A stretch of 64,000 nucleotides of DNA from Candidatus Poribacteria bacterium (GTDB lineage: Bacteria; Poribacteria; WGA-4E; WGA-3G), in NCBI GenBank assembly GCA_965215265.1, contig OZ244048.1:3807812-3871811 (forward strand), read 5' to 3'. Below are positions 5,111 to 64,000 of the stretch, in pieces. The notes under the pieces are model-generated. The model did not search any database. It saw only the letters and a list, made by a program, of their open reading frames with translations, and was not told the origin of the DNA. The number at the start of each line of letters is the position of its first letter. Positions within the stretch are counted from its first letter, which is position 1. The position numbers were made by a program, and so were the translations under genes.

Positions 5111-6082
5111 TTATCGGGCAGAACCCTCGGAGAGAAGGAATTGCTCAATCTCAATTGGAGTTGGCAACGCAGGAATAACCCCCATCCTCTGTGTGGCTAA
5201 CGCTCCGGCAGCGTTTGCATAGCGCATGATTGTCTCCAATTTCGTGGTATCAAGTGACTGGATATGCTCATGACGTATCAATTCTGACAGCATCGCAGCG
5301 ACAAACGCATCGCCCGCGCCAAGTGTATCCACAACATCAATGGCAAACCCATCAACGTACCCTTCAGCACTGCCGTTGGTGTAGTAGCATCCTCGCTCCC
5401 CTAATGTCACTATGAGCAGCACAGCACCGAGCCCGAGAATCCGTTCTGCACCCCTTCCAAACGGAACGTCTCCCATGATAAATTCCCACTCTTCTTCCGA
5501 AATTTTAACGACATCGGCTGACGGCATCACCTCCCAGATCCACTGTTTGGCATCGTTGGCGGTGTCCCAAAGCATCAACCGCAAATTCGGATCGTAGGAA
5601 AGGAATGCTCCGGCAGATTTCGCATACTGGATCGCTTTTAACGTTGCTTCTCGACTTGGTGAATGACTGAGGCTGACGGAACCGTAATGGAAGAGTTCGG
5701 TCGATTTTAGATAGGCTGCATCGACTTCATCTGGCGAGAGTTGGATGTCGGCCCCGGGGTGCCGATAGAAGGTAATATCCTTCATTCCATCAGAACGTGT
5801 CGCAACGAACGCTAAGGTCGTGCGAGAGTGCTCGCCAGCGATGAGGTAGGAAGTATCTACATTATTCTGTGTGAGTGTGTCTCTCAGGAAAACCCCAAAC
5901 GCGTCTGCGCCGACTTTCCCGATAAAACCGGTATCAATACCGAGTTTTGCCAATCCAACGGCAACGTTTGCTGGTGCGCCGCCCGGGGCTTTGACAAACC
6001 CCGGCGATGCTGCGAGCGTTACATCGGTTGCGGTTGATACAAAATCTATGAGCAACTCACCTATACAGATTGCTTTGGGCAT
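5111..6082 (-). CDS. PfkB-family sugar kinase (fructokinase/KDG-kinase-like)
   Basis: PfkB signature DTLGAGDAFVAAML near the C-terminus. N-terminal GG motif region. Confidence 0.8.
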   Translation of the reverse strand: MPKAICIGELLIDFVSTATDVTLAASPGFVKAPGGAPANVAVGLAKLGIDTGFIGKVGADAFGVFLRDTLTQNNVDTSYLIAGEHSRTTLAFVATRSDGMKDITFYRHPGADIQLSPDEVDAAYLKSTELFHYGSVSLSHSPSREATLKAIQYAKSAGAFLSYDPNLRLMLWDTANDAKQWIWEVMPSADVVKISEEEWEFIMGDVPFGRGAERILGLGAVLLIVTLGERGCYYTNGSAEGYVDGFAIDVVDTLGAGDAFVAAMLSELIRHEHIQSLDTTKLETIMRYANAAGALATQRMGVIPALPTPIEIEQFLLSEGSAR

Positions 6083-6097
6083 ACGAGTTTAGTCCCT

Positions 6098-7174
6098 TCA
6101 AAATGTCGTGTACAAGGTTTGGGCTTGCCCGGTTTGGGCAGAGCGATACCCTGCATCGAAAATCTCTATCACGTGCCGAGCATGCTCCGCCGTAACGATG
6201 GTAGGCTTATCCTCACGGATCCAGTCTACTAACTGCATGATATCCTCGTACACATGTGATTCCTCAATATTCCGATGGGAACCCACCACGTGTGGCAATG
6301 CCATGTCCGGTGCTTCAATCGGTTTTCCGTTAAGCGAATTCCCTTGAATGCTACCCTCTGTTCCGTGAATCGCTAATCCGCCGCGGACGACTGAGCCCGC
6401 GGCCGCACCGTAGACAAATCCATAGAATGCCTCTCCGAAATCCAATAAAATGAAGGTGTTATCGTCCATATCGCAAGGAAGCATCTCGCCCCGGAATTCA
6501 CGCTCCTTGACTCGAACCCCAGAAAAAGCTGTCACGCGTTTCGCGGGACCGAGGATACCTGTCATGGTATGTAGACCGTAAACCGTCATATCGTAAAGGG
6601 GACCTCCGCCCGGTTTCCGGAAATACCACGCAGGGTTAATATTTGAGAGCAGATCGGCTCCGTGTCGAACGGATTCGTTTTCGTGGTATCTGCCGAAGGC
6701 CGAACCGGTCGCTGCCCACGTCAACGTTCCAATGGCACCGGCTCGAACGAGCCTGCGAATTTCTTGGTTAATCGGACGCAACATCTGCCCAGGTGAAGCG
6801 ACTAATTTTACGCCTTTGCGCGCCGCTGTCGCAATCAGATCATCCGCTTCGTCCACAGTAGTTGTCATTGTCTTATTAAAATGTGCATGAACACCGTGTT
6901 CTACCGCAAGTTTTCCCTGCTCGTAATGCAAACCGATCGGCGACGCAATGCTAACTGCATCTACATGTCCATCAGCCAATAGTTCTTCGTAACTTTCATA
7001 GGCATGCGGTACATTGAATTTTTCGGATGCGGCTCGTGCCCTGCCTGGGACCGGATCGCACACAGCAGTTACTTGCAGCCTATCTTGGACATCGTCTTGC
7101 GTAAGGTGCGGAAGAATCCCGCGCACCGAGATACTTCCCACCCCGACGACTCCGATCCGCACTCTATCGCTCAT
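6098..7174 (-). CDS. Gfo/Idh/MocA-family oxidoreductase
   Basis: N-terminal Rossmann IGVVGVGSISVRG. ATG at 7174 has SD GGAGG 5 nt upstream. This ATG overlaps the stop of the upstream epimerase gene (ATGA). ORF-track start 7186 is a GTG inside the SD. Confidence 0.8.
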   Translation of the reverse strand: MSDRVRIGVVGVGSISVRGILPHLTQDDVQDRLQVTAVCDPVPGRARAASEKFNVPHAYESYEELLADGHVDAVSIASPIGLHYEQGKLAVEHGVHAHFNKTMTTTVDEADDLIATAARKGVKLVASPGQMLRPINQEIRRLVRAGAIGTLTWAATGSAFGRYHENESVRHGADLLSNINPAWYFRKPGGGPLYDMTVYGLHTMTGILGPAKRVTAFSGVRVKEREFRGEMLPCDMDDNTFILLDFGEAFYGFVYGAAAGSVVRGGLAIHGTEGSIQGNSLNGKPIEAPDMALPHVVGSHRNIEESHVYEDIMQLVDWIREDKPTIVTAEHARHVIEIFDAGYRSAQTGQAQTLYTTF

Positions 7175-10644: not shown

Positions 10645-10708
10645 TTTCCCTTACATCAGACATCCGGTATAAAGCCTGATAGACTGTTTTTTTTTTTGTG
10701 AAAATTAA

Positions 10709-17056: not shown

Positions 17057-19606
17057 ATGGGAATAAAGAAATCACAACTTTACGCGTCTCTATGGGCGAG
17101 CTGCGATGAGCTGCGCGGTGGGATGGACGCATCACAATACAAAGACTATGTGCTGACACTGCTTTTCCTGAAGTCTGTGTCGGATAAGGCGGCAGTGCAT
17201 GGAGATGCGACGCTGATTGTCGTCCCCCCTGGCGGGGGGTTCTCCGATATGGTGAAGTTGAAGGGGAACAAAGACATCGGTGACAAAATCAATAAAATCA
17301 TCGGAAGATTGGCAGACGCCAATGAACTGAAAGGTGTGATAGATCAGGCGGATTTTAACGATGAGAGCAAACTGGGCAGAGGGAAAGAGATGCAGGACCG
17401 GCTCTCGAAACTGGTTTCTATTTTTGAGGGGCTTGATTTACGGGGGCATAGGGCATCGGCTGAGGATCTGCTGGGTGACGCGTATGAGTATTTGATGCGG
17501 CATTTCGCGACGGAGTCAGGGAAGAGTAAGGGACAATTCTACACCCCTGCGGAAGTGTCGCGCGTAGTGGCAAAAGTTATCGGCATCGGCCCAGACACGC
17601 CCCAATATAGGACTGTCTATGATCCAGCGTGTGGCTCCGGGTCTCTGTTGCTGAGGGCAAATGCGGAGGCGCCGCGGGGGCTGTCGGTTTACGGACAAGA
17701 GAAGGATCATGCGACTTACGCGCTGGCCAGGATGAACATGATTTTGCACGATACGGCGACGGCGGAGCTCTGGCATGGTAACACGCTCTCCGCGCCCTAC
17801 TTTCTGAACGCGGAGCATGGTTTGAAGACGTTCGATTTTGCGGTTGCGAATCCGCCGTTCTCGGACAAAGCGTGGTCAAACGGGCTGAATCCTGTGCATG
17901 ACGCTTATGGCCGTTTTGCGTATGGAGTGCCGCCTGCGAAGAATGGAGATTATGCTTTTCTGCTCCATTTCCTCGCCTCGTTGAAGAGCAACGGGCAGGG
18001 GGCGATAATCTTGCCGCATGGCGTGTTGTTTAGAGGGAATAGAGAAGGGGAGATTCGGAAAGCGTTGGTCAAGCGTGGGTTCATCAAGGGGATAATCGGG
18101 TTGCCTGCGAATCTGTTCTACGGTACCGGCATTCCCGCGTGTATTCTGGTTATTGACAAGGAGAAGGCGCCTGCGCGCCGTGGCATCTTCCTGATAGATG
18201 CGAGCCGGGGGTTCCTGAAGGCGGGTAACAAGAATAGGCTGCGTGCGCGAGATATTGATAAAATAGTGAGGGTGTTCACCGAACAGCGGGAGATGGCGGG
18301 TTATGCGCGGCTGGTGCCCGTGTCTGAGATTGCGAGTGCTGCGAACGCCTACAATCTGAACATCCCGCGCTATATCGATGCGAGCGAGGCGGAAGATTTG
18401 CATGACTTGGATGCCCACCTGAACGGTGGGATTCCTGAGAGTGAGCTTGCCAGCTTGGAGGGGTATTGGAAGGTATTCCCGACATTACGTGAGGAGTTGT
18501 TTGAGAGTGGCATCCGGCCGGGCTATAGCGATGTGCGCGTGGAAGCAGAAGCAGTGAAAAGCACGATTGTAGGACATCACGAGTTAGAAGTTTACCGGCG
18601 GGGGGTTGAGAGGTGTTTTCACGCTTGGCGTGAGGTTCACACGCGGCGTCTGTTTGGCATTGAGGTAGGGACATCGCCTAAAGCGGTAATTGATGCGTTG
18701 TCTGCGGATTTACTGACGTACTTTGCAGACGCGCCGCTGCTGGATGCGTATGATGTCTACCAAGGATTGATGGATTATTGGGAAGCGGTGATGCAGGACG
18801 ATGTGTATCTTATCGCTGCCGAGGGGTGGCGTGAAGGGGTGAAACCGCGCGCGCTGATTCAGGATAAGCGGATCAAGGAGGCACCGGACCTCGTCGTCAA
18901 GCGCAAGAAATATAAGCTGGATCTGATACCGCCGGGTCTGATTGTTGCACGCTACTTTTCGGATGAGCAGGCGGCTATAGAGTGCCTCCAAGCGTCGCAT
19001 GAAAGGGCAGCGCAGGAAGTTGAGGCGTTCGTTGAGGAACACGCCGCAGAGGGTGGTGCGCTGGCTGGGCTTGAAGGGGCGCGAGGCATAAGCAAGGGGA
19101 ATGTGCTACAGCGCGTGATGGAGTATAGGGACATTATTTTGAGGGAGTTTGCTGAAGGCACTGCTGCGTCTGAACAGGCGAAAGCGATTAAGAAAGCGAG
19201 TTTCGGTGCTTGCGCCTGGACGAAGGGCGTGAAGGATGCCGGGTGTCTGTTTGCGGAATTGGACGTTCTTTATGAGTATCTGCAGCTGATAGGGGAGGAG
19301 ACGCGCCTGCAGCGGCTGCAGAAAGAGACATCAGAGGCGCTGGCGGTTTCGGTGCTTGGGAAGTATGCGGAGCTGCGCGAAATAGAGATTAAGACGTTGG
19401 TAGTGGAAGGGAAGTGGTTAGCCAGTATCCATGGGGCGATTGAGGCGGAAATAGAAGGGGTGACGCAAGCGTTGACGGGGAGTGTGCAGGGGTTGGCGGG
19501 GCGTTATGCGATGCCGTTGCGAGAATTAGCCGTCAAAGTGTCAGCGTTCAGCGCGCAGCTGGAAGTGCATCTGAAAAATATGGGGATAGAGTGGACAGGG
19601 ATATGA
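17057..19606 (+). CDS. hsdM: Type I restriction-modification methyltransferase subunit HsdM (N6-adenine), with ~350-aa C-terminal extension
   Basis: HsdM N-terminus LYASLWASCDELRGGMDASQYKDYVLTLLFLKSVSD. Motif I VYDPACGSGSLL. Motif IV VANPPFS. 849 aa versus ~520 for a canonical HsdM. Confidence 0.9.
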   Translation: MGIKKSQLYASLWASCDELRGGMDASQYKDYVLTLLFLKSVSDKAAVHGDATLIVVPPGGGFSDMVKLKGNKDIGDKINKIIGRLADANELKGVIDQADFNDESKLGRGKEMQDRLSKLVSIFEGLDLRGHRASAEDLLGDAYEYLMRHFATESGKSKGQFYTPAEVSRVVAKVIGIGPDTPQYRTVYDPACGSGSLLLRANAEAPRGLSVYGQEKDHATYALARMNMILHDTATAELWHGNTLSAPYFLNAEHGLKTFDFAVANPPFSDKAWSNGLNPVHDAYGRFAYGVPPAKNGDYAFLLHFLASLKSNGQGAIILPHGVLFRGNREGEIRKALVKRGFIKGIIGLPANLFYGTGIPACILVIDKEKAPARRGIFLIDASRGFLKAGNKNRLRARDIDKIVRVFTEQREMAGYARLVPVSEIASAANAYNLNIPRYIDASEAEDLHDLDAHLNGGIPESELASLEGYWKVFPTLREELFESGIRPGYSDVRVEAEAVKSTIVGHHELEVYRRGVERCFHAWREVHTRRLFGIEVGTSPKAVIDALSADLLTYFADAPLLDAYDVYQGLMDYWEAVMQDDVYLIAAEGWREGVKPRALIQDKRIKEAPDLVVKRKKYKLDLIPPGLIVARYFSDEQAAIECLQASHERAAQEVEAFVEEHAAEGGALAGLEGARGISKGNVLQRVMEYRDIILREFAEGTAASEQAKAIKKASFGACAWTKGVKDAGCLFAELDVLYEYLQLIGEETRLQRLQKETSEALAVSVLGKYAELREIEIKTLVVEGKWLASIHGAIEAEIEGVTQALTGSVQGLAGRYAMPLRELAVKVSAFSAQLEVHLKNMGIEWTGI

Positions 19607-45940: not shown

Positions 45941-46786
45941 ATGACAGAATTTCTTAAGCTGATGATCCCATGTAAGCTGATGATCCCATGGTTGTGGGGC
46001 GATATTGAGTGGATCACGGAAAGTTTTATTACTACCATTTTTTTATGCACGTCGGTGTTAGTAATTCGGTTTTGGAGGAAAACCTTCAATCGATGCAGCT
46101 TAATTGACGGGTTAACCAAATACGTAAGTGAATACTCCAGACCTGCCAATCCAAAGATTCTTCAGAAGTTAAAAGAGGAATTTAATCGGCGCAACGTTGA
46201 ACTCTCCGAAGTGTTGCAGGAATTTGCTGATTCACTCATTACCCGTGAAAAGAATAATAATCAGAAGATCGTGTACAAAACAGACGAGGCCTCTCTTTTT
46301 TTTAGCGAAGACCGGCTGTTAGAGCAACACTTAAACCTCCGCTTTTGGAATAGTGTTCCTGCCCTTTTGGTAGGATTAGGGATTCTTGGCACGTTTGTCG
46401 GGCTTGTTTTCGGACTGCAATCATTTTCAGATATTAATTTTGAGAACACGGATGAGATTCAACGGGCCATTAAACAACTCCTCTCCGGCGTGTCGATTGC
46501 TTTTGTAACCTCCGTTTGGGGCATGCTGTTCTCGCTTCTGTTCAACGCATTGGAAAAGTGGCTTGTTGGCAGAGTCGGCAAGGCGATTGCGGATCTGCAG
46601 CGTGCCTTGGATCGACTTTTTACGCTGACCACCCAAGAGGAGATTTCGTTAAAACAACAAGACGAACTCGCGCAACAGACACGGGCCTTCAAAGAATTGT
46701 CGACGGATTTGGCGAGTGCAATCTTCGATACCTTTTATATCAGGTTATCCGAGACCACTTCAGTTTGGAAAACGTTTTTATCGTGA
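45941..46786 (+). CDS. MotA/TolQ/ExbB-family proton-channel protein with truncated coiled-coil tail (ZorA-like fragment)
   Basis: Signature TM2/TM3 PALLVGLGILGTFVGLVFGL...GVSIAFVTSVWGMLFSLLFNA. Then ~70 aa of coiled coil that runs into the out-of-frame SNF2 C-terminal region. No MotB/ExbD/TolR partner. Confidence 0.5.
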   Translation: MTEFLKLMIPCKLMIPWLWGDIEWITESFITTIFLCTSVLVIRFWRKTFNRCSLIDGLTKYVSEYSRPANPKILQKLKEEFNRRNVELSEVLQEFADSLITREKNNNQKIVYKTDEASLFFSEDRLLEQHLNLRFWNSVPALLVGLGILGTFVGLVFGLQSFSDINFENTDEIQRAIKQLLSGVSIAFVTSVWGMLFSLLFNALEKWLVGRVGKAIADLQRALDRLFTLTTQEEISLKQQDELAQQTRAFKELSTDLASAIFDTFYIRLSETTSVWKTFLS

Positions 46787-47640
46787 ACGGTGAGACACCC
46801 GGGAGTGCACAGCGAGCAGGTACAATGAAAATGAGCCGTCAACAAGCCGTTGATTCCTTTCAGAAAACCGCGGGTTTCAACGCCATCGTCATGTCCCCAC
46901 TTGCAGCGGGAGTTGGGTTAAACATTACAGAAGCGAACCATGTTATTCACTATAGCCGTTGGTGGAATCCTGCAAAAGAAGATCAGGCGAGCGACCGGGT
47001 TTATCGAATTGGACAAAAACGCCGGGTGCATATCTACCTCCCGATGGCAACCCATCCGGAATTTAAAACTTTTGATGTTATCCTACATGAACTCCTTGAG
47101 CGAAAACGCCGGCTGTTGCAAGACACTCTGCTCCCGACAGAACGTGCCGAAGTGAAACCTGTCGAAATTCTAACTAAATTAGACCCAATAACACCTAACA
47201 GAGGAAAAGAGTCCACATTAACGATAGAAGACGTTGACAGGCTAGATCCAAGATTCTTTGAAATTTGTGTCGCTGCACTTTTTCAGAAACAGGGTTATCG
47301 TGTTGAGGTAACGCCTTACTCAGGCGATAAAGGTGCGGATATCGTCGTTTATCCATGTGCAGACGGGAATACTGGATTTCTAATCTAGGTCAAACAACGT
47401 CGGGCGGACGGAAAATCGGCGCGTGATGCTGTCGACGAGATCATTGCGGCGAAGCTGTTTTATGAGGAAAAATATGCCATGTCTTTCAAGCCTCTTGTTA
47501 TTACCAACCGGGAGTTTACCAAAGACGCTCGCGGATACGGTCAGAAGAATCAGGTAAAGATGTACGAACGCAAAGAGTTGAAACGAAATTTAAAGCAATA
47601 TCCCGTGACGTGGCAAGATGTGAACCGGTGCCAGTTCTGA
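46700..47640 (+). pseudogene. remnant: SNF2-helicase C-terminal half fused to Mrr-type (Mrr_cat) endonuclease domain, in-frame TAG at 47386-47388
   Basis: Helicase motifs IV-VI: FNAIVMSPLAAGVGLNITEANHVIHYSRWWNPAKEDQASDRVYRIGQKRRVHIY. Mrr_cat: GDKGADIVVYPCADGNTGFLI*VKQRRADGKSARDAVDEI...FKPLVITNREFTKDA. The N-terminal ATPase half is absent. Confidence 0.6.
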
Positions 47641-56703: not shown

Positions 56704-57642
56704 CTACCAGCTCGCTCGCCTCGTTCGCCTCGTTAGGCAATTTTTGTCGTTCTCTAACCGGATAGGTTCGAGGATAGGTCTCAAAAATCCGTTATGTTTT
56801 TCTAATAGTGTGCGTGCATCGGTTGCGTTCATCCCGCATGCTAGCATGACAATCGCCACCTTCGCGCTACCATCTGCCTTCGCTAAGGTTGCTTCGGCCG
56901 TTACCCCATCAACGCTTGTGATAGTTTGCACAATTCTGATGCTGCGTGCGACAAGTTTCGCGTTAGATGCCTGCACATCTACCATCAGGTTGTTGTAAAC
57001 CTTACCGATTTTGAGCATTGAAATCGTCGTCAGCATATTGAGTACCAGTTTTGTGGCAGTGCCTGCTTTCAATCGGGTTGAGCCCGTCACAAGTTCGGGT
57101 CCGACGATAGGTGCGATGAAATAGTCTACGAATTTGTTCAATTCTGTTGTGGGTGGTACACAACAGAGAAATATGGTTGTAGTGCCGATGGCATGCGCTT
57201 CGTCTAATGCACCGAGGACGTAAGGTGTGCGTCCACTACTTGCGATGCCAACGATGACATCTTTTGGCGTGAGCTGCCGTGCACGGATTTCTTGTTTTCC
57301 ACGTTCAGCTTTATCCTCTTCGCCTTCAACTGAACGACGTAAGGCGATGTCGCCTCCAGCAATAATCGCTTGGACCATCTCCGGCGGAGTGCTGAAGGTT
57401 GGTGGGCACTCAGAGGCATCAAGCACCGCCAGCCGTCCACTCGTTCCGGCTCCGACATAAAACAGACGTCCGCCGTGGCGAAAGGCGTTTGTGATTACGT
57501 CAACGGCTTGGGCGATTGCCTCAGCTTCAGCCTCTACTGCCGCTGCTGCTTTTAGATCCTCTTGGTTGAAAAGCTGAACGATTTCTAACGTTGATTTCAG
57601 ATCTATGTCAATTGAATTTGAATTTCGTTGTTCCGTAATCAT
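56704..57642 (-). CDS. murQ: N-acetylmuramic acid 6-phosphate etherase
   Basis: SIS domain GRLFYVGAGTSGRLAVLDASECPPTFS is nearly identical to the MurQ consensus. Start MITEQ as in E. coli MurQ. Confidence 0.85.
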   Translation of the reverse strand: MITEQRNSNSIDIDLKSTLEIVQLFNQEDLKAAAAVEAEAEAIAQAVDVITNAFRHGGRLFYVGAGTSGRLAVLDASECPPTFSTPPEMVQAIIAGGDIALRRSVEGEEDKAERGKQEIRARQLTPKDVIVGIASSGRTPYVLGALDEAHAIGTTTIFLCCVPPTTELNKFVDYFIAPIVGPELVTGSTRLKAGTATKLVLNMLTTISMLKIGKVYNNLMVDVQASNAKLVARSIRIVQTITSVDGVTAEATLAKADGSAKVAIVMLACGMNATDARTLLEKHNGFLRPILEPIRLENDKNCLTRRTRRASW

Positions 57643-57707
57643 TTTTATAGACTTAACGAATAAGGTCGGCACGGTGCGCGAGGTTCCGTGTGTATTTCGT
57701 CAAATAT

Positions 57708-58664
57708 TTACCCGTGCCTTGCTAACAAGACAGCACCGTATGCAGGTTCGTGCTTCGGAAGTATGACTGCCGCCGTGGATGTAAACCTCTCAATCCGGCT
57801 GCGGAGTACGTGAACAAACAAGGGTTCATGCAGCAAATTTCCACCACTGAGAACAATCTCAAAAGGTTCCGTGAATGCTAACCGCTTTATCACGACTGCT
57901 GTCGCGTGTGCGAGTTCCTGAGCTGCAGTGGTAACGAGTTGTTTCGCGGCCCGGTCGCCTGCTTCAGCTGCACGAAAGACTTCTTCTGCAAGCCGAGCGA
58001 TTTCCTCTCGTTTCGCTGCATGCACCCAGGGTATGAGTTCGGTGGATGCATTTAATCCCAATTTGTTGAGGAGCCGGTTTGTCAATTCAGTAGCGTATGT
58101 TCTGCCATCAGCTGCACGTGCTACCGCTTGAAGTCCTTTTAAACCGATGTCGTACCCGCTGCCTTCATCTCCGAGCAGGTATCCCCATCCACCAGCGCGT
58201 GCTTCTTGCGCATGTGCGTTAATGCCGTAGACGATGGAACCGGTCCCCGATATAACAATGATGCCTTCCTGTTTTTCGGTACCGCCGATCAGGGCGATGT
58301 GTGCATCGTGTGTGAGAATCCTATTTTCTCCGATACCCAGTTCATCGCAAATGCTGTTGATGATGTATCGATCTGCGTTACGTCCCAAGCCTGCCATCCC
58401 CAAGCAGATTTTTGCACACGTAAATGGGAAAGCTGCACCGGCCTGGCGTTTCGCACACCACTCTTGCTGGCTATCTGAGGCAGCACAACCTGCTCGTTCA
58501 AAAAGTCCGGAGATAAGTGTTTCCAAAACCGCTTTCGTGCGTGCTTCGCCAACCACGTGGTAATTTGAGGGTCCCGCTTCCATTTGTGCGATACGTTCGC
58601 CTGTCTCTGTGGTTAGGATACCAACTGTTTTAGTTCCACCCCCGTCGATCCCGATGATGTACAT
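57708..58664 (-). CDS. BadF/BadG/BcrA/BcrD-type ATPase, N-acetylglucosamine/N-acetylmuramate kinase-like (MurK-like)
   Basis: MYIIGIDGGGTKT phosphate-1 motif. Adjacent to murQ (MurNAc recycling pair). Confidence 0.7.
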   Translation of the reverse strand: MYIIGIDGGGTKTVGILTTETGERIAQMEAGPSNYHVVGEARTKAVLETLISGLFERAGCAASDSQQEWCAKRQAGAAFPFTCAKICLGMAGLGRNADRYIINSICDELGIGENRILTHDAHIALIGGTEKQEGIIVISGTGSIVYGINAHAQEARAGGWGYLLGDEGSGYDIGLKGLQAVARAADGRTYATELTNRLLNKLGLNASTELIPWVHAAKREEIARLAEEVFRAAEAGDRAAKQLVTTAAQELAHATAVVIKRLAFTEPFEIVLSGGNLLHEPLFVHVLRSRIERFTSTAAVILPKHEPAYGAVLLARHG

Positions 58665-58779
58665 GATATCTGTCTCGCTGCTGCTTGACAATTTGGCGTT
58701 GTTTTTCTATAATGTAATATATCACAATTTTGGAAATAAATGCGATCAATTTCTACGTTTAACCGTGGAGGTACAGAAG

Positions 58780-59766
58780 ATGAAAAAAAAGAATTGGGAA
58801 TCGCGCTTAGCTGCTCATGCGGAAAAGATAAAAACATTACTTAGACTTGCACTCATCGGGCTATGTGGCGGCCTCGTTTTCCTCGGTTGTACTCAGGATG
58901 ACGGAGAAATGGAGTGGCAACAGATTGAGAGTGGTACAGAGGCGCATCTCTACGGTGTCCATTTCGTTGACGCGAAACATGGATGGGCAGTCGGCAGCGG
59001 AGGTATCGTGCTAAAGACGACCAACGGTGGGTTGAAATGGGGCTCTCAGTCGATTTCCGGAGCGGTTGCTAAAAATACCTTAACCCAAGTGAATTTTACA
59101 ACGCCGGACAATGGGTGGGTTGTTAGCATCGGAACGGTGCTTTATACGGGAAACGCAGGGGAATCGTGGCATCCACAAAACCCTAATACCAAAAATGGGC
59201 TGTTGGATCTGCATTTCGTTGGCACGACGGAAGGATGGGCAGTCGGTGGAAGAGGGACCATTCTCCACACACAGAACGGAGGTACCCAGTGGAAACAACA
59301 GAGAAGCCCCTCAGAGAAACACTTGTGGAGTGTACATTTTGTTGATAATCAGAACGGCTGGATTGTCGGTGAAGAAGGTGAGATACTGCATACACGAGAC
59401 GGCGGTCAGCAGTGGATACTTCAAAAAAGTACCGTTGAACAACCGTTATTCGCCGTCCATTTCGCGAATCTCCTGGACGGGTGGATTGTGGGAACAAATG
59501 GGTTGATTCTCCACACAGCGAATGGAGGACTGCGATGGCAGCGGCAGCAGACTCCAGTGAAGTTAAACTTACGAGATGTTGCATTTCACGATGAACTCCG
59601 CGGGTGGGCAGTGGGGGAAAAAGGATTAATTCTTCACACAATTGATGGGGGACAAACGTGGAGCCAATACCACTCGCCAGCCGAACAAAATCTTCAAGAC
59701 ATTTATCTCTTTAAAACAAAAGGTTGGATTGTCGGTGGAAAAGGGACACTCTTGCGGAGTGATTAG
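58780..59766 (+). CDS. BNR/Ycf48-like beta-propeller lipoprotein
   Basis: Lipobox LVFLGCTQ. Five or more repeats of T(x)(N/D)GG(x)(K/Q/R/T)W. ATG 58780 with SD GGAGG. Confidence 0.7.
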   Translation: MKKKNWESRLAAHAEKIKTLLRLALIGLCGGLVFLGCTQDDGEMEWQQIESGTEAHLYGVHFVDAKHGWAVGSGGIVLKTTNGGLKWGSQSISGAVAKNTLTQVNFTTPDNGWVVSIGTVLYTGNAGESWHPQNPNTKNGLLDLHFVGTTEGWAVGGRGTILHTQNGGTQWKQQRSPSEKHLWSVHFVDNQNGWIVGEEGEILHTRDGGQQWILQKSTVEQPLFAVHFANLLDGWIVGTNGLILHTANGGLRWQRQQTPVKLNLRDVAFHDELRGWAVGEKGLILHTIDGGQTWSQYHSPAEQNLQDIYLFKTKGWIVGGKGTLLRSD

Positions 59767-60024
59767 ACTTCAAAATCTTCATCCACATTATGAAAGATGT
59801 TAATAGTCAAGTGAGAATAACTCATAGAGCCTTTCTGTCAGAGCGCAGATCGCTTTGTCACTATTCAGGTACTCGCCCGAAAGAGTCGCACTCGCGGAGA
59901 ACGAACATAACCCTCACCGCAGGACGGAAGACAAGCGCGCTCCAAGTTTTTTACGTTTCTGTAACTAACGGACTGATTCCGATAGCAACGGTTGGCTGTA
60001 TCTGTTATCTGATAGCATACGGTG

Positions 60025-60399
60025 TTACATGCACAGTTTGTAAATCCAGCGGAACATGCACAGGACAATCGCACTGATGAGAATTATGTTTCTGGTTAGA
60101 TGCGAGCGTTGATTCCAGGTTTTTGCTATCCAAGTTGGGAAAAACGCCGTCCCGATTGCCAAGGCAAGAATCAAGAATGAAAAGGGATGATAACCCCATG
60201 CGTCGGCAAACTTTCCTTGTATGAGGGCGAGGCATGCACGTGTCATGCCACACCCAGGACAAGGGATGTCTGTCAACATATCAAACGGACAGCGGATTAA
60301 TGAAATGACCGCTGGTATGGTTCCTATCCATGCGACGTACAGTGCGAGCACAACCAGACTGATCAGAAATAGACGTGCAAGATGAGTGTGGTTAACCAT
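60025..60399 (-). CDS. DUF2752 family membrane protein
   Basis: CPFDMLTDIPCPGCGMTRA motif characteristic of DUF2752. Confidence 0.6.
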   Translation of the reverse strand: MVNHTHLARLFLISLVVLALYVAWIGTIPAVISLIRCPFDMLTDIPCPGCGMTRACLALIQGKFADAWGYHPFSFLILALAIGTAFFPTWIAKTWNQRSHLTRNIILISAIVLCMFRWIYKLCM

Positions 60400-60860
60400 T
60401 TTCGTGGCGTAAGCGGATAAGGCGGGTCTAGCCGGAACCTTCCATTACCTATCTCACCAGAGGCTTTCCTATTATGTTTGAGTCGTGTTATAAAACTTAT
60501 TGATATGGTGCTGCTGGATAGCAAGCGAGGCAATACCAACACCGAAAATCGCCACAAAACACAGGTGGCGGGCAAACTTGTATCAACTCTCAGTTTATTG
60601 TTCTCCTGGACTTCGTTAATACCGGATGCCATTCTGTACTCGTAATAAATACCATAGATGCCGCAGGTGAGAAGGTAAAAGAAAAACCACTGCCAAAAAG
60701 AGTACTCGTCTCTTTTAAGCCAAGCATTAAGCGTCTCCATCTGTTTGTATTGCCAGTATAATCCATAGATGCCACAAGTAATCAAGCTTAACAAAATTCC
60801 GGCCAGAATACTTCTTACCGCGTCATACTCTGGATAGGGGTACTGATCGCGCATAAACAA
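60363..60860 (-). CDS. DUF4234-like small membrane protein (3' boundary uncertain)
   Basis: Repeated TCGIYG(L/I)YW segments. C-terminal ~60 codons look non-coding but lack a stop. Confidence 0.4.
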   Translation of the reverse strand: MFMRDQYPYPEYDAVRSILAGILLSLITCGIYGLYWQYKQMETLNAWLKRDEYSFWQWFFFYLLTCGIYGIYYEYRMASGINEVQENNKLRVDTSLPATCVLWRFSVLVLPRLLSSSTISISFITRLKHNRKASGEIGNGRFRLDPPYPLTPRKWLTTLILHVYF

Positions 60861-60956
60861 TCTCCTTGCATTTGCATAGGTGAGAAATTAGAGTTTAGGA
60901 TAATGAAGTGTCCACACTTAAAAGACGAACGGTTTTGAAAAGAAAGAAAAAATGTG

Positions 60957-61205
60957 CTACACACCTATTGCGTACCCATCGTGCCTCGGATCTGCACCGC
61001 CCATAAAACTTCCCTCTTCCGGGTCGAAAGCGATGCCTTGCCCGCCGCCGGCAGTCGCTGTCCAGCTCGGGAGCACCTCAACCTCATGTCCACGGACTTC
61101 CAATGCCGCACGCACGGAAACGGGGATATGTTCCTCTACACCGACATGCGTGCCTGGATTTATGAGGCGGATGCGGGGTGCTTCAATAGCCGCCTGAATG
61201 TTCAT
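60957..61205 (-). pseudogene. gamma-glutamyltranspeptidase C-terminal fragment (82 codons)
   Basis: ...FDPEEGSFMGGADPRHDGYAIGV matches the extreme C-terminus of the GGT small subunit. ~450 upstream codons absent. Confidence 0.5.
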
Positions 61206-61451
61206 CTTGTGTTCAATTCATTGGGAGCACTGCTCCCTTCTCATTAAAAACGGTGGTGCCACAGTTTTTGTGCCCGGTAGCGGTGCATATTTAACCAAAG
61301 TAGCAACATTAAACGCACGGCTACCGGTTTTAGTGCTAAAAAATTATAGCACATTTCAGGTTTTTTTTTGCAAAATCTTTTTTCGTCACATGGAGCGATA
61401 ATGCAACCTTGGGTGTGAGACATCACACGCCATCTGGTATCAGGTGAGACT

Positions 61452-61649
61452 TTAAAATATGCCGAACCCTAAAACAAGCCGGATAGTACCCAAGAAAATT
61501 GCAACAGCACAACAGATGAGTCCAGCAACCGCTAACTCTTTCTGGGCTGATACGATAACGGCAAGGATGCTAAAACAGAGGCCAAGCCTAGTAAACGGAA
61601 TGTTAACGTAGTTGAATGCTCCAAGGCACGGAATAACGCCAAACAACAT
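61452..61649 (-). CDS. small two-TM membrane protein, hypothetical
   Basis: 65 aa from internal ATG (MLFGVIPCLGAF...). N-terminal extension of the listed ORF is non-hydrophobic and His/Arg-rich. Confidence 0.3.
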   Translation of the reverse strand: MLFGVIPCLGAFNYVNIPFTRLGLCFSILAVIVSAQKELAVAGLICCAVAIFLGTIRLVLGFGIF

Positions 61650-62041
61650 TCCCACAAATTGAGTATCATCTGTAACGTGGTTTGAAGAATACCGTGGCTG
61701 CCCGGGGTGCCAATTGCAGCGAACGGCTGTCCTGCTTTCCAGACTTGACTTGGCATGGTGCCATACACATCTCGATGCGTTTATGTGGTGCAACAGCGTT
61801 CGGGCTCATCGGTTCCCTGTCAAACCAGTTCATAAAATTGTTGAGAAACATTCCAGTGGTGCCGAGAATTTCGCCTGAGCCGAACGGTTGTCCGAGGCTC
61901 TGTGTAACTGCGACGTTGAACGGTGCGTTGTGCCGTGTGATGGAAATGCCATTTTTATAGAGTCCTCTTTTTGGTATCGGGAACCGATCCGGTTAACTTG
62001 ACGAGAACGTTCTTGTACCTATCTTGTCTAAAATAGAGAAT

Positions 62042-62326
62042 CTATTTTTTCATAAAACACTGCCGAAACCGGTACCATCGCAGCCGCCACATCAACTTCT
62101 TTCTATCAATGCGATGAACAAAAATCCGTTTTCCATCTATTTCGAGCACCGGAATTAAGTGCTTATATTTTGTAAACACACCGAGATTTTTTGTGATGTC
62201 AATCTCTGTGAGTTGAAAAATAGTGGCTGATTTCGCCGAAATCATTTGCAGTTCCGCTTTTGCTTCATCGCAGAGCGGGCAGTCCGGTTTTGTATAGAAT
62301 TGAACCTGAATTTTTTCGTGTTTCAC
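62042..62326 (-). CDS. glutaredoxin-like protein (Glutaredoxin_2/DUF836 family)
   Basis: VQFYTKPDCPLCDEAKAELQ with C-P-x-C active site. ~90 aa. Confidence 0.65.
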   Translation of the reverse strand: MKHEKIQVQFYTKPDCPLCDEAKAELQMISAKSATIFQLTEIDITKNLGVFTKYKHLIPVLEIDGKRIFVHRIDRKKLMWRLRWYRFRQCFMKK

Positions 62327-62784
62327 ATGCGTACTTTTGTATCCATTAACATGCGTGCCGGTAGCGTGAAAAACTCGTGCCTGATTTCCGATGTAACTTC
62401 ACTGTAAAGGAAAACTTAGATGATGTCAACTTATTTTACATATCACTTGAACGGCTTGGAAGAGATGAAACTGAAGTTTTTTGTGCTTCTGTTGCTGCGA
62501 CCTCCGGCTCCTCGTTGTCCGAGGGTTCGCGTCGTCTTTTTTCGCAGCTCTCTTGCGCCGCGCGGACTCACAACTTTTCTCATACACAGACTCCGCCATC
62601 GCCCCCACCCGCAACTCACAAAAAAAGTGCCGCTAAATCAGACACCCCACATTTTTCTTACAAATTTTTTTCAAATATGATATATTAATGTGAACATCAT
62701 AAAAATCAGCCTGACAATGTTGAAAACCTGCTTATCAGAGGAGACAACCGCATGCACAATAAACTCACAAAGCCCAGACTCGTC

Positions 62785-62850
62785 CCTCAACTGCATCGCC
62801 CCAGAGGAGCAAACGCACCTCAACTGCATCGCCCCATAGGAGCAAACGCA
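62785..62850 (+). repeat. 33-bp perfect tandem duplication covering the RBS of the Type IIL gene
   Basis: CCTCAACTGCATCGCCCCA(G/T)AGGAGCAAACGCA x2 (62785-62817, 62818-62850). The second copy ends in the A of the ATG. Each copy carries an AGGAG SD. Confidence 0.8.
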
Positions 62851-64000
62851 TGAACAAAGAACACATCAGAGTCGCTCTTGCAGCAATATCCACTGGCCCC
62901 TTTTTACAAACCGCGAAAAACCTGCTCGCCACGCTCGGCTACCGCAGCGATTTGACAGAAGCATTCTCTGGAACAGCCGGCGACTTTATAGAGACTTTCC
63001 CCGCATTCAACTCAAACACTCAAACAGAACAAGCCCTCCGAAACCACGCAGCCTCGATACACTTCATCTTTCAACTCACAGACGCTGAAATAGATGCCGA
63101 AACGCAACAGCGGTTAACCCTCTTGGAAGGAAACGATGCCGGAAGTTTCTTTTTCTTCGCCGTAGAACTAAAAGAGAAAACCTACTCCCGCGGTGCGTAC
63201 GCAGAATTGACGCGAGAACTCAACAAGCGTCTGATTGTTCCGACGGTGGTGTTATTTCGTGTGTCAACCCGGCTAACCCTCGGTTTTGTGGGACGCCGTC
63301 CACACGCGCACCACCCAGAACGTGATGTTCTCCAACAAGTGACACTCATCAAGGACATTCGTCTGGAGGCGCCGCACCGTGCGCATCTGGATATCTTAGC
63401 GGAGCTGTCACGAACAGAATGCCTGAAGTGGATTGACGCCAATAAGAAACAGAAAAACTTAGCCGGGCTGCTATCCGCTTGGCTTGCGAAACTCAACACC
63501 GAAGCGCTCAACAAGCAGTTCTACCGAAGGTTGTTCAGCTGGTTCGAGTGGGCAGTGAGGGAAGCGAAGTTCCCGACAGCCGAGCTGAATCCGTTGGGTC
63601 CCGAGGAACACATCATCCGGCTCATCACGCGGCTGCTCTTTATATGGTTCTTGAAAGAAAAAGGGCTTGTCCCCGAGTGGCTTTTTGAAGATTCCGGGCA
63701 GAGTGAGCAGGTGAGCCTGCAAAACAACGCGCCGTCTGAAGAATCTGAGGAGAGAGGGCGGGTGGGCCTGCAAAACAACGAGCCGTCTGAATACCCCCCC
63801 CCTTACAGACGTTAAGTCTTCTGCCGAACTCCACGACAGAAAGCAGCCTGCACGCACACCTCAAAAACTTTAACCCCGACACATCCGACTACTACCAAGC
63901 CATCCTCCAAAACCTATTCTTTGCTACTCTCAACACACCCATAAATCAACGCGCCTTTAGCACACGCCGAAACCCAACCCACCGCGATTCAAGCAAATAT
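62850..64000 (+). pseudogene. MmeI-family Type IIL restriction-modification enzyme (N-terminal PD-ExK nuclease + helical linker; MTase part beyond window), frameshifted at C9 tract 63794-63802
   Basis: DAGSFFFFAVELKEK is like MmeI D..ILLIEMK. IIRLITRLLFIWFLKEKGLVPEWLF is like MmeI LVRLLFCLFAEDTTIFEKSLF. After the C9 tract the -1 frame continues ...NFNPDTSDYYQAILQNLFFATLNTP (MmeI HINTLFYVLNTP). A 30-nt direct repeat pair (63711-63740 / 63762-63791) sits just upstream of the tract. Confidence 0.7.

What the first reader, a model, noticed from the sequence alone, without database searches (positions are those of the whole stretch)
62740..64000. MmeI-family Type IIL RM gene switched off at a C9 homopolymer, with duplicated RBS upstream
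The protein from 62850 has the MmeI-type N-terminal PD-ExK nuclease motif (D-x13-AVELK) and the diagnostic helical linker (ITRLLFIWFLKEKGLVPEWLF). Translation stops 4 codons after a run of nine C (63794-63802). The clear continuation (...NFNPDTSDYYQAILQNLFFATLNTP...) is in the -1 frame, so C10 would restore a continuous ORF. Just upstream of the tract is a near-exact 30-nt direct repeat pair (GTG(A/G)GCCTGCAAAACAACG(C/A)GCCGTCTGAA at 63711-63740 and 63762-63791), which is hard to explain in a coding region. Immediately before the ATG, a perfect 33-bp tandem duplication copies the SD-containing leader. The combination of a homopolymer tract and short tandem repeats at the 5' region of an RM gene is the classic architecture of phase-variable RM systems (phasevarions). 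The alternative is a homopolymer sequencing error.
Basis: partly seen in the sequence, partly recalled or inferred. Interest (0 to 1): 0.6.

Follow-up and report, generated by a model that had tools for sequence, protein, structure and literature searches.

The report
Poly-C on/off switch in restriction-modification gene
The window ends in a large DNA-methylase/restriction-type gene that a run of nine C's puts out of frame, and a closely related strain has ten C's and an intact gene at the same locus, so this looks like a real but ordinary homopolymer on/off switch, found here in an uncultured, probably sponge-associated, bacterium.

Summary
C9 lies at 63794-63802, ORF 62850-63815 stops four codons later, and the -1 frame stays open to the window end.

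It is not a sequencing error or a dead gene. The orthologous locus in a sister strain (L086; 6 kb of flank 98.7% identical) has C10 between identical flanks and one 1218-aa ORF. Two diverged lineages show matching ON/OFF pairs (C10/C9 and C9/C13). Relatives have a single frame break, exactly at the tract. dN/dS is about 0.25 on both sides.

The genome that holds the window carries at least seven paralogues, all out of frame (C8 or C9), with two different target-recognition modules.

The MmeI/Type IIL label fails. Pfam finds Eco57I, TaqI_C and N6_Mtase; no MmeI N-terminal, helical, TRD or C-terminal domain matches, and MmeI_Mtase scores below its cutoff. The "AVELK" ExK motif is not conserved in the family, and the modelled N-domain matches no solved fold.

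In 64 of 86 sequences examined an HKD(PLD)-SNF2 gene lies directly upstream. It does not here.

The 33-bp leader duplication is 32/33 and specific to this strain. The "30-nt repeat" is part of a 51-nt in-frame repeat that varies in copy number.

Verdict: a slipped-strand phase-variable RM-type gene, a new member of a known kind. Switching rate and methylation phenotype are untested.

The parts
62657..62686 (+). Promoter-like site (CTTACA-18-TATATT with a TG extension), about 165 nt upstream of the start codon
   Evidence: Consensus scan. The sequence is conserved in L005 and L006. Function is inferred only.
62752..62853 (+). 33-codon upstream ORF with its own GGAG; its TGA stop overlaps the main ATG (ATGA)
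   Evidence: The same uORF is 22 codons in L005, L006 and L086 by my reading of the alignments. It is not conserved as a uORF in L001. Significance is untested.
62785..62850 (+). 33-bp tandem duplication (32/33) that contains the Shine-Dalgarno sequence; it is in frame with the uORF and specific to this strain
   Evidence: A single copy is present in L005, L006 and L086.
62850..63815 (+). OFF-state ORF of 321 aa: the N-terminal domain, the conserved helix and the repeat linker, ending at a premature TAA at 63813-63815
   Evidence: It is identical to P0248, which lies on a 4,833,177-bp public contig.
62850..63686 (+). Family-specific N-terminal domain (about 280 aa) ending in the invariant helix RLITRLLFIWFLKEK; function unknown
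   Evidence: No Pfam hit above threshold for the window copy; weak PF14335 (DUF4391) hits in relatives. AlphaFold2 model has pLDDT 84. No Foldseek match in the PDB below E = 0.025.
63686..63787 (+). Two copies of a 51-nt (17-aa) in-frame tandem repeat in the inter-domain linker; copy number varies between relatives
   Evidence: One copy in L001, two in L006, three in L005, and two with a 12-nt deletion in L086.
63794..63802 (+). Poly-C tract (C9), the frame switch
   Evidence: L086 has C10 between identical flanks. Paralogues have C8. The homologous tracts are C9/C10 in the L051 lineage and C9/C13 in the L062 lineage.
63791..64000 (+). Start of the downstream reading frame (-1 relative to the ORF). 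It has no ATG, GTG or TTG start of its own and encodes the conserved YYQAILQNLFFATLNT motif. It runs off the window end.
   Evidence: In L001 and L006 this frame stays open for 988 codons with dN/dS 0.28.

Best explanation
The window ends in the first 1.15 kb of a roughly 3.7-kb gene. It encodes one polypeptide made of an N-terminal domain of unknown function, an Eco57I-like N6-adenine DNA methyltransferase, and a TaqI_C-type target-recognition domain. HMMs class it as Type IIG-like. In this clade the linker between the N-domain and the methylase carries a poly-C tract. At C9 translation ends after 321 aa. At C10 (also C7 or C13) the full protein of about 1220 aa is made. Slipped-strand mispairing during replication changes the tract length, so the gene flips between OFF and ON. 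This is classical simple-sequence-repeat phase variation, as in C. jejuni cj0031 and H. pylori HP1353-54/JHP1272. Shown here: the frame logic; natural ON and OFF alleles differing only in tract length at the orthologous locus and in two sister lineages; a single frame break; purifying selection on both halves. Inferred: that switching is frequent and reversible within a population; that the ON protein methylates (and, alone or with an HKD-SNF2 partner, restricts) a specific motif; and that variation serves defence or epigenetic heterogeneity.
For: 1. Orthologous locus. Window 56815-62817 aligns to L086 1-6001 at 98.7% identity. The tract is C9 in the window and C10 in L086, with identical flanks. 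L086 encodes one 1218-aa ORF reading ...SEYPPPLQTLSLLPNSTTESSLHAHLKNF....
2. Independent lineages. L051 has C10 (OFF) while L087 and L088 have C9 (ON, 1238 aa). L062 has C9 (OFF) while L089 has C13 (ON, 1232 aa). Flanks are identical in each pair.
3. Single break. L001 and L006 have exactly one frame break, at the tract, followed by 988 open codons. dN/dS is 0.225 upstream and 0.276 downstream, with dS 0.26-0.34.
4. No independent start. The 74 codons after the tract have no canonical start codon, yet they encode a nearly invariant family motif.
5. Specific to the tract. Across the 86 sequences examined, the only genes that change frame at this linker are those carrying a tract. The standard linker is 90-93 nt with no homopolymer.
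6. Paralogues differ. C8 and C9 both occur among copies on one contig.
7. Rarity. C9 is the only G/C run of 8 or more in 64 kb.
8. Precedent. Poly-C ('PPPP') on/off switches are described in Type IIG genes of H. pylori (PMC3936762), and poly-G in C. jejuni cj0031 (PMC8355987 and PMC4889913).
Against: No read-level data are available, so within-population heterogeneity and switching rate are unknown. OFF alleles dominate: 17 distinct OFF N-terminal sequences against 1 ON in this clade. That is more OFF than random phase would give. It could reflect selection or mutational bias, or could mean that ON is rare and the tract is mainly an inactivation hot-spot. The window copy has no adjacent HKD-SNF2 partner, so its restriction role is uncertain. 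The rest of the window's own gene is outside the window and could not be fetched.
Confidence: 0.8

Rival explanations
1. Recoding at the RNA level. The gene is hard-wired out of frame, and a low level of full-length protein is made by RNA-polymerase slippage on the C run, or by ribosomal +1/-1 slippage of tRNA-Pro on CCC codons at a stall-prone PPP motif. The tract would then act as an expression throttle, not a DNA switch.
For: OFF alleles are heavily over-represented: 17 OFF to 1 ON in this clade, and all seven paralogues on one contig are OFF. Both halves are under purifying selection despite the break. A C run allows re-pairing in either register (established knowledge of tRNA-Pro slippage; not tested here).
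Against: In-frame DNA alleles exist in three lineages, so DNA-level change is sufficient and does occur. The required shift differs between alleles: -1 for C9 here and in L062, +1 for the C8 paralogues, L051 (C10) and L073 (C12). No significant or conserved RNA structure flanks the tract; z-scores are -0.94, -0.83, +1.94, +1.02 and -0.80. Efficient transcriptional slippage is documented mainly for A/T runs (my own knowledge).
Confidence: 0.1
2. Mutational hot-spot without adaptive switching. The poly-C tract is a fragile site that repeatedly inactivates dispensable or costly RM genes. The OFF copies would be young pseudogenes, and the ON alleles simply not yet hit.
For: OFF alleles predominate. 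Many more distant family members in MAGs carry other frameshifts. RM genes are commonly degraded.
Against: L001 and L006 diverged to dS of about 0.3 while both keep C9, yet they show no second lesion in 988 codons and have dN/dS of 0.28. Tracts sit at the same linker position in lineages whose N-domains are only about 40% identical, each with exactly one break. A tract that only did harm should be purged by synonymous Pro-codon changes, but it is retained.
Confidence: 0.07
3. Assembly or sequencing artefact. The true tract is C10 and was under-called.
For: Homopolymers are error-prone on long-read platforms.
Against: C9 is recovered in a SPAdes-named contig (L005, cov 51) and in contigs with long-read-assembler-style names (L006); technologies are inferred from contig names. 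The same sample (ERZ25070786) and naming style yield C9 at L006 and C10 at L086. Paralogues on one contig differ, C8 vs C9. The rest of the window has intact, densely packed ORFs.
Confidence: 0.03

Closest known systems
H. pylori Type IIG genes JHP1272 and HP1353-HP1354 (Hpy99XIV family), Krebes et al. 2014, PMC3936762
   Same: A single-chain RM-type methyltransferase gene interrupted by a poly-C run that encodes prolines. One tract length gives a truncated product and another gives the active full-length enzyme. Strains differ in tract length.
   Different: Those enzymes are compared to the MmeI/TaqII families and carry a second tract that changes specificity. This gene has one tract, in the linker after a different N-terminal domain (weak DUF4391 hits in relatives), plus an adjoining 51-nt variable-number repeat. 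Activity is untested.
C. jejuni cj0031 (CjeFIII-type Type IIG), Anjum et al. 2016, PMC4889913
   Same: A homopolymeric G/C tract inside a Type IIG RM gene causes ON/OFF phase variation. It is linked to phage resistance and methylation-dependent gene expression.
   Different: That is a cultured pathogen with measured switching rates and phenotypes. Here the evidence is comparative only, from MAGs. There are at least seven paralogous switched copies on one contig, where cj0031 is a single locus.
Phase-variable Type III mod genes (phasevarions) of Haemophilus, Neisseria and Helicobacter
   Same: The switched gene carries both the methylase and the target recognition. In most family loci a separate helicase-nuclease gene is adjacent, so switching the methylase/TRD gene would silence both modification and restriction.
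   Different: Type III Mod is a beta-class methylase and Res carries a PD-ExK nuclease. Here the methylase is Eco57I-like (gamma class, NPPY) with a TaqI_C TRD. The partner, where present, is an HKD(PLD)-SNF2 protein (PADLOC model C3a139). Repeats in mod genes are usually tetra- or pentanucleotides.
   Same: A large single-chain protein with an N-terminal domain, a helical connector, a gamma-class N6A methylase and a C-terminal TRD. MmeI_Mtase gives a sub-threshold hit.
   Different: No MmeI_N, MmeI_hel, MmeI_TRD or MmeI_C match. MmeI_Mtase scores 22.7 bits against a cutoff of 27, while Eco57I scores 126.6. The N-domain has no conserved D...ExK.

Membership tests
MmeI family / Type IIL | MmeI N-terminal PD-ExK nuclease domain (Pfam MmeI_N) with conserved D...ExK | tested here: not met
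   No MmeI_N hit at E <= 1 for the window N-terminus or the repaired full-length relative. E106 of 'AVELK' is kept in 13 of 39 family members and K108 in 14 of 39. The Foldseek search of the PDB with the model gave nothing below E = 0.025.
MmeI family / Type IIL | MmeI helical connector, MmeI methyltransferase, MmeI TRD and C-terminal domains (Pfam MmeI_hel, MmeI_Mtase, MmeI_TRD, MmeI_C) | tested here: not met
   Only MmeI_Mtase appears, at 22.7 bits, below its cutoff of 27. Eco57I scores 126.6, TaqI_C 43.7 and N6_Mtase 35.4. The PDB sequence search returns CamA and BseCI, not MmeI.
MmeI family / Type IIL | Lone-strand methylation that suffices for host protection; cleavage about 20/18 nt from the site | not testable with these tools
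   This needs enzyme assays or methylome data.
Type IIG RM enzymes (fused methylase, TRD and nuclease) | Gamma-class N6-adenine methyltransferase with an NPPY motif, fused to a TRD in one chain | tested here: met
   Eco57I, N6_Mtase and TaqI_C are found in the repaired L001 protein, and 'GNPPY' is present. The PADLOC REase_MTase_IIG model scores E = 1.3e-95. The window itself shows only the N-terminal 384 aa, with a PADLOC hit at E = 1.6e-4.
Type IIG RM enzymes (fused methylase, TRD and nuclease) | A nuclease domain in the same polypeptide | tested here: inconclusive
SSR-mediated phase-variable (contingency) gene | A homopolymer inside the ORF whose length sets the reading frame | tested here: met
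   C9 at 63794-63802; frames verified.
SSR-mediated phase-variable (contingency) gene | Tract-length polymorphism among closely related strains, giving both ON and OFF alleles | tested here: met
   Window C9 against the orthologous L086 C10. L051 C10 against L087/L088 C9. L062 C9 against L089 C13. Paralogues have C8 or C9.
SSR-mediated phase-variable (contingency) gene | An otherwise intact gene maintained by selection | tested here: met
   There is a single break, followed by 988 open codons, and dN/dS is 0.23-0.28 on both sides. This was shown in relatives. The window's own 3' part lies outside the window; P0384 on the same contig is its probable continuation.
SSR-mediated phase-variable (contingency) gene | High-frequency, reversible switching within a clonal population | not testable with these tools
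   This needs raw reads or culture work.
Phasevarion | ON/OFF methylation that changes expression of a regulon | not testable with these tools
   There are no methylome or transcriptome data.
Programmed frameshift / transcriptional slippage site | A fixed slip site and direction, a stimulatory RNA element, and no in-frame alleles | tested here: not met
   Lengths of C8, C9, C10 and C12 need shifts in opposite directions. No significant structure is present. In-frame alleles exist.
HKD(PLD)-SNF2 plus methylase two-gene system (PADLOC C3a139 'HKD+Snf2') | A helicase-nuclease gene of about 1100 aa immediately upstream of the methylase gene | tested here: not met
   It is present in 64 of 86 sequences examined, including L001, L051, L062 and L073. 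It is absent from the window, L005, L006 and L086, where the neighbours are unrelated genes.

The most novel reading that the evidence does not exclude
One uncultured, probably sponge-associated, genome carries a set of at least seven poly-C-switched paralogues with at least two different target-recognition modules. Most of the copies whose neighbourhood could be seen lack their own HKD-SNF2 nuclease-helicase gene. The copies could act as interchangeable specificity/modification subunits for a shared motor supplied in trans. That would give a combinatorial, population-level repertoire of restriction and methylation states, the functional analogue of shuffling Type I hsdS genes but built from homopolymer switches. 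The strong OFF bias would then be the designed resting state.
Probability: 0.15. Interest if true: 0.7.

Novelty: new member of a known kind. Interest (0 to 1): 0.45.

Why it matters
Phase-variable RM systems are documented almost entirely in host-adapted pathogens such as Campylobacter, Helicobacter, Neisseria and Haemophilus. Here the same homopolymer logic appears in uncultured environmental bacteria, in a poorly characterised RM family, and in many copies on one contig. My literature searches found no description of this for sponge symbionts, but those searches were limited.

If switching is confirmed, two things follow. Strain-level restriction and methylation heterogeneity in dense symbiont communities could be generated by contingency loci. 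MAG annotation pipelines would also be systematically mislabelling such genes as pseudogenes or as split ORFs.

There is a practical lesson too. The ON alleles were invisible in searches of cluster representatives and only appeared among the cluster members.

Tried and rejected
1. Neisseria origin. GCCGTCTGAA, the Neisseria uptake-sequence 10-mer, occurs only twice in 64 kb. Both copies are inside the 51-nt repeat, and relatives have CAGTCTGAA there. I treat it as coincidence.

2. General assembly noise. The window is densely packed with intact ORFs, so this is rejected.

3. A stimulatory hairpin. CGTCTG/CAGACG brackets the tract in the window, but the fold is not significant and is not conserved in L062, L051 or L073.

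4. Independent translation of the downstream part. There is no ATG, GTG or TTG for 74 codons after the tract, and that stretch includes a near-invariant motif.

5. The truncated lengths of the top hits. I first suspected long-read homopolymer errors. In fact full-length single-frame genes are common among the GTDB representative genomes, and the truncated hits are a mix of real frameshifts and contig ends.

6. Fetching the window's own contig. Look-ups for P0003, P0248 and P0241 all failed.

7. Two JGI metagenome scans with flank patterns returned 0 hits.

9. Taxon assignment through a window protein. The ORF I chose turned out to be a Type I hsdM, which is horizontally mobile and uninformative. 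The phylum is therefore not established. The nearest homologues are Poribacteria MAGs, at 59-65% identity.

Full report
**What is in the window**

A run of nine C lies at 63794-63802. It is the only G/C homopolymer of 8 or more in the 64 kb; the next longest are one G7 and seven C6. ORF 62850-63815 (321 aa) ends ...EYPPPYRR* four codons after the tract. The -1 frame is open from 63791 to the window end and reads IPPPLQTLSLLPNSTTESSLHAHLKNFNPDTSDYYQAILQNLFFATLNTP....

Two details need correcting. The "30-nt repeat" is the core of a 51-nt, 17-codon, in-frame tandem duplication at 63686-63787, 82% identical. The 33-bp leader duplication at 62785-62850 is 32/33, not perfect.

**Is it an artefact or a dead gene?**

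Neither. The 321-aa product is identical to P0248, which lies on a public 4,833,177-bp contig. The closest relatives are 81-91% identical and all stop at the same place.

At the DNA level the window, L001, L005 and L006 all have exactly GTCTGAATA-C9-TTACAGACGTTAA. L005 is a SPAdes-named contig (coverage 51) and L006 has a long-read-assembler-style name. I infer the sequencing technologies from those names.

In L001 and L006 the -1 frame stays open for 988 codons starting at the tract, so there is one break only. Between these two, dN/dS is 0.225 upstream (dS 0.34) and 0.276 downstream (dS 0.26). A pseudogene that predated their split would not look like this.

The first 74 downstream codons have no ATG, GTG or TTG, yet they encode a motif that is nearly invariant across the family. 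That stretch can only be translated by joining the upstream frame.

**The decisive comparison**

ON alleles were hidden as non-representative members of 90% clusters, so the first homology searches missed them.

P0385 (1218 aa) is encoded at L086. Six kilobases of its upstream flank are 98.7% identical to window 56815-62817, and the neighbours match (DUF4234 and gamma-glutamyltranspeptidase fragments). It is therefore the orthologous locus in a sister strain. There the tract is C10 between identical flanks, and the gene is one continuous ORF reading ...SEYPPPLQTLSLLPNSTTESSLHAHLKNF..., exactly the predicted fusion.

The same pattern holds in two diverged lineages, whose N-domains are about 40% and C-terminal parts 63-67% identical to this clade:
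- L051 has C10 (OFF), while L087 and L088 have C9 (ON, 1238 aa).
- L062 has C9 (OFF), while L089 has C13 (ON, 1232 aa).

Flanks are identical within each pair. L073 carries C12 and is OFF.

Across the 86 sequences examined, the standard linker is 90-93 nt with no homopolymer. The only genes that change frame there are the ones with a tract.

A different phylum shows the same habit at another site. Four paralogues in a Limisphaerales MAG carry G11, G15, G16 and G17 in a loop of the N-domain. One of the four is in frame at the tract.

**Mechanism**

The best-supported explanation is slipped-strand phase variation of the tract at the DNA level.

RNA-level recoding is a weaker rival. In-frame DNA alleles exist. 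The observed OFF lengths (C8, C9, C10, C12) would need shifts in opposite directions. No significant or conserved RNA structure accompanies the tract; z-scores range from -0.94 to +1.94.

The one observation that still favours recoding, or strong selection for OFF, is the bias in allele states. This clade has 17 distinct OFF N-terminal sequences against one ON. All seven paralogues on the 4.83-Mb contig are OFF: three end ...YPPPYRR* (C9), three end ...YPPLTDVKSS... (C8), and one is a variant. A mutational bias toward C8-C9, or a cost of the ON state, would explain this. Neither was tested.

**What the gene is**

It is not in the MmeI family. On the repaired full-length relative, Pfam gives:
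- Eco57I, 126.6 bits
- TaqI_C, 43.7 bits
- N6_Mtase, 35.4 bits
- MmeI_Mtase, 22.7 bits, below its cutoff of 27
- no other MmeI domain

The window's N-terminus alone hits nothing. PDB relatives by sequence are CamA and BseCI. PADLOC calls the protein REase_MTase_IIG at E = 1.3e-95.

The N-terminal 279 aa model confidently (pLDDT 84) but match no solved fold by Foldseek (best E = 0.025, TM below 0.2). The proposed ExK in "AVELK" is kept in only about a third of family members, whereas Q75, E80, S99, R114, T121 and R122 are conserved. Relatives give weak DUF4391 hits.

In 64 of 86 sequences examined, an HKD(PLD)-SNF2 gene of about 1100 aa sits directly upstream (PADLOC C3a139 'HKD+Snf2', E = 2e-107). 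The window, L005, L006 and L086 lack it. The nuclease of the system may therefore be that partner and not the N-domain. This is inference.

Paralogues on the window's contig carry two TRD types that are only about 30% identical after the NPPY motif. P0384 (type B, 90.6% identical to the matching part of P0385) is the probable continuation of the window's gene.

**The other repeats**

The 51-nt unit is an in-frame variable-number repeat in the linker. Relatives have one, two or three copies, and L086 has two with a 12-nt deletion. Other subfamilies have different in-frame linker repeats. It does not switch the frame.

The 33-bp leader duplication exists only in this strain. It lengthens, in frame, a small upstream ORF (62752-62853) whose stop overlaps the main ATG. 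That uORF is 22 codons in L005, L006 and L086. Its significance is unknown.

**Context and novelty**

The family is common in MAGs from many phyla, several of them sponge-derived or from sponge-typical groups such as Poribacteria and Ca. Porisulfidus.

Poly-C or poly-G switches in Type IIG genes are established in H. pylori (PMC3936762) and C. jejuni (PMC8355987 and PMC4889913). My searches found no report for sponge symbionts.

I therefore rate this a new member of a known kind. The mechanism is ordinary. The setting is less so: many switched paralogues on one contig, a poorly characterised family, and a marked OFF bias.

**Limits**

- There are no reads, so switching frequency and reversibility are unmeasured.
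- Enzymatic activity and recognition motif are unknown.
- The window's own 3' part was not seen.
- The phylum of the source organism is not established.

Noticed in passing
public 4,833,177-bp contig holding the window (proteins P0003, P0241, P0243, P0248-P0251; P0376, P0380-P0384): At least seven paralogues of the switched gene lie on one contig, all out of frame (C8 or C9). They carry two different C-terminal target-recognition modules, about 30% identical after the NPPY motif. The contig could not be fetched.
   Followed up: partly
L022, L040, L048, L049 (Limisphaerales MAG OZ241891.1), tract near locus positions 5955-6230: Four paralogues of the same family carry a poly-G tract (G15, G16, G11, G17) in a loop of the N-terminal domain. 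One is in frame at the tract and three are out. This looks like an independent homopolymer switch at a different site, in another phylum.
   Followed up: partly
L002 9732-9740: Another family member is broken at a C9 run inside the methylase region (...EVPPPSVHYSCL*), with the frame continuing in +1. The neighbourhood is rich in transposases.
   Followed up: no
window 62752-62853: A 33-codon upstream ORF has its own GGAG, and its TGA overlaps the main ATG (ATGA). The strain-specific 33-bp duplication adds exactly 11 codons to it. It is 22 codons in L005, L006 and L086, and absent as a uORF in L001.
   Followed up: partly
window 62818-64000 against 56815-62817, compared with L086: The gene body is 92.7% identical to the orthologue, while 6 kb of upstream flank is 98.7% identical. 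This suggests recombination or gene conversion among paralogues, or faster evolution of the gene.
   Followed up: no
P0123, P0138, P0157, P0161 (linker region): Other subfamilies have long in-frame tandem repeats in the same linker (VARLQSAPTGGG..., VGAVSNRAP...), giving linkers of up to 109 aa where the usual length is 30. The linker is a general hot-spot for repeat expansion.
   Followed up: no
L001 6087-9380 and 64 of 86 sequences examined: An HKD(PLD)-SNF2 gene of about 1100 aa (PADLOC C3a139 'HKD+Snf2'; Pfam PLDc_2, SNF2, Helicase_C, weak RE_NgoFVII) lies immediately upstream of the methylase gene in most family loci, but not in the window.
   Followed up: partly
window 17057-19606: An 849-aa Type I RM HsdM (N6_Mtase + HsdM_N). 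The region carries other defence-type genes as well.
   Followed up: no
window 46516-47385 (overlapping ORF 45941-46786; T8 at 46296-46303): An ORF with Helicase_C and the start of Mrr_cat overlaps, in another frame, a MotA/ExbB-like ORF. It may be a truncated or frameshifted helicase-nuclease gene.
   Followed up: no
window 60957-61205 (and L086 4144-4992): Only C-terminal fragments of a gamma-glutamyltranspeptidase gene remain. The same pseudogene remnants occur at the orthologous locus.
   Followed up: no
window 63731-63740 and 63782-63791: The Neisseria DNA-uptake 10-mer GCCGTCTGAA occurs twice, only inside the 51-nt repeat. It is not conserved in relatives and is judged coincidental.
   Followed up: yes
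window 10687-10697: A T11 run, the longest homopolymer in the window. It was not examined.
   Followed up: no
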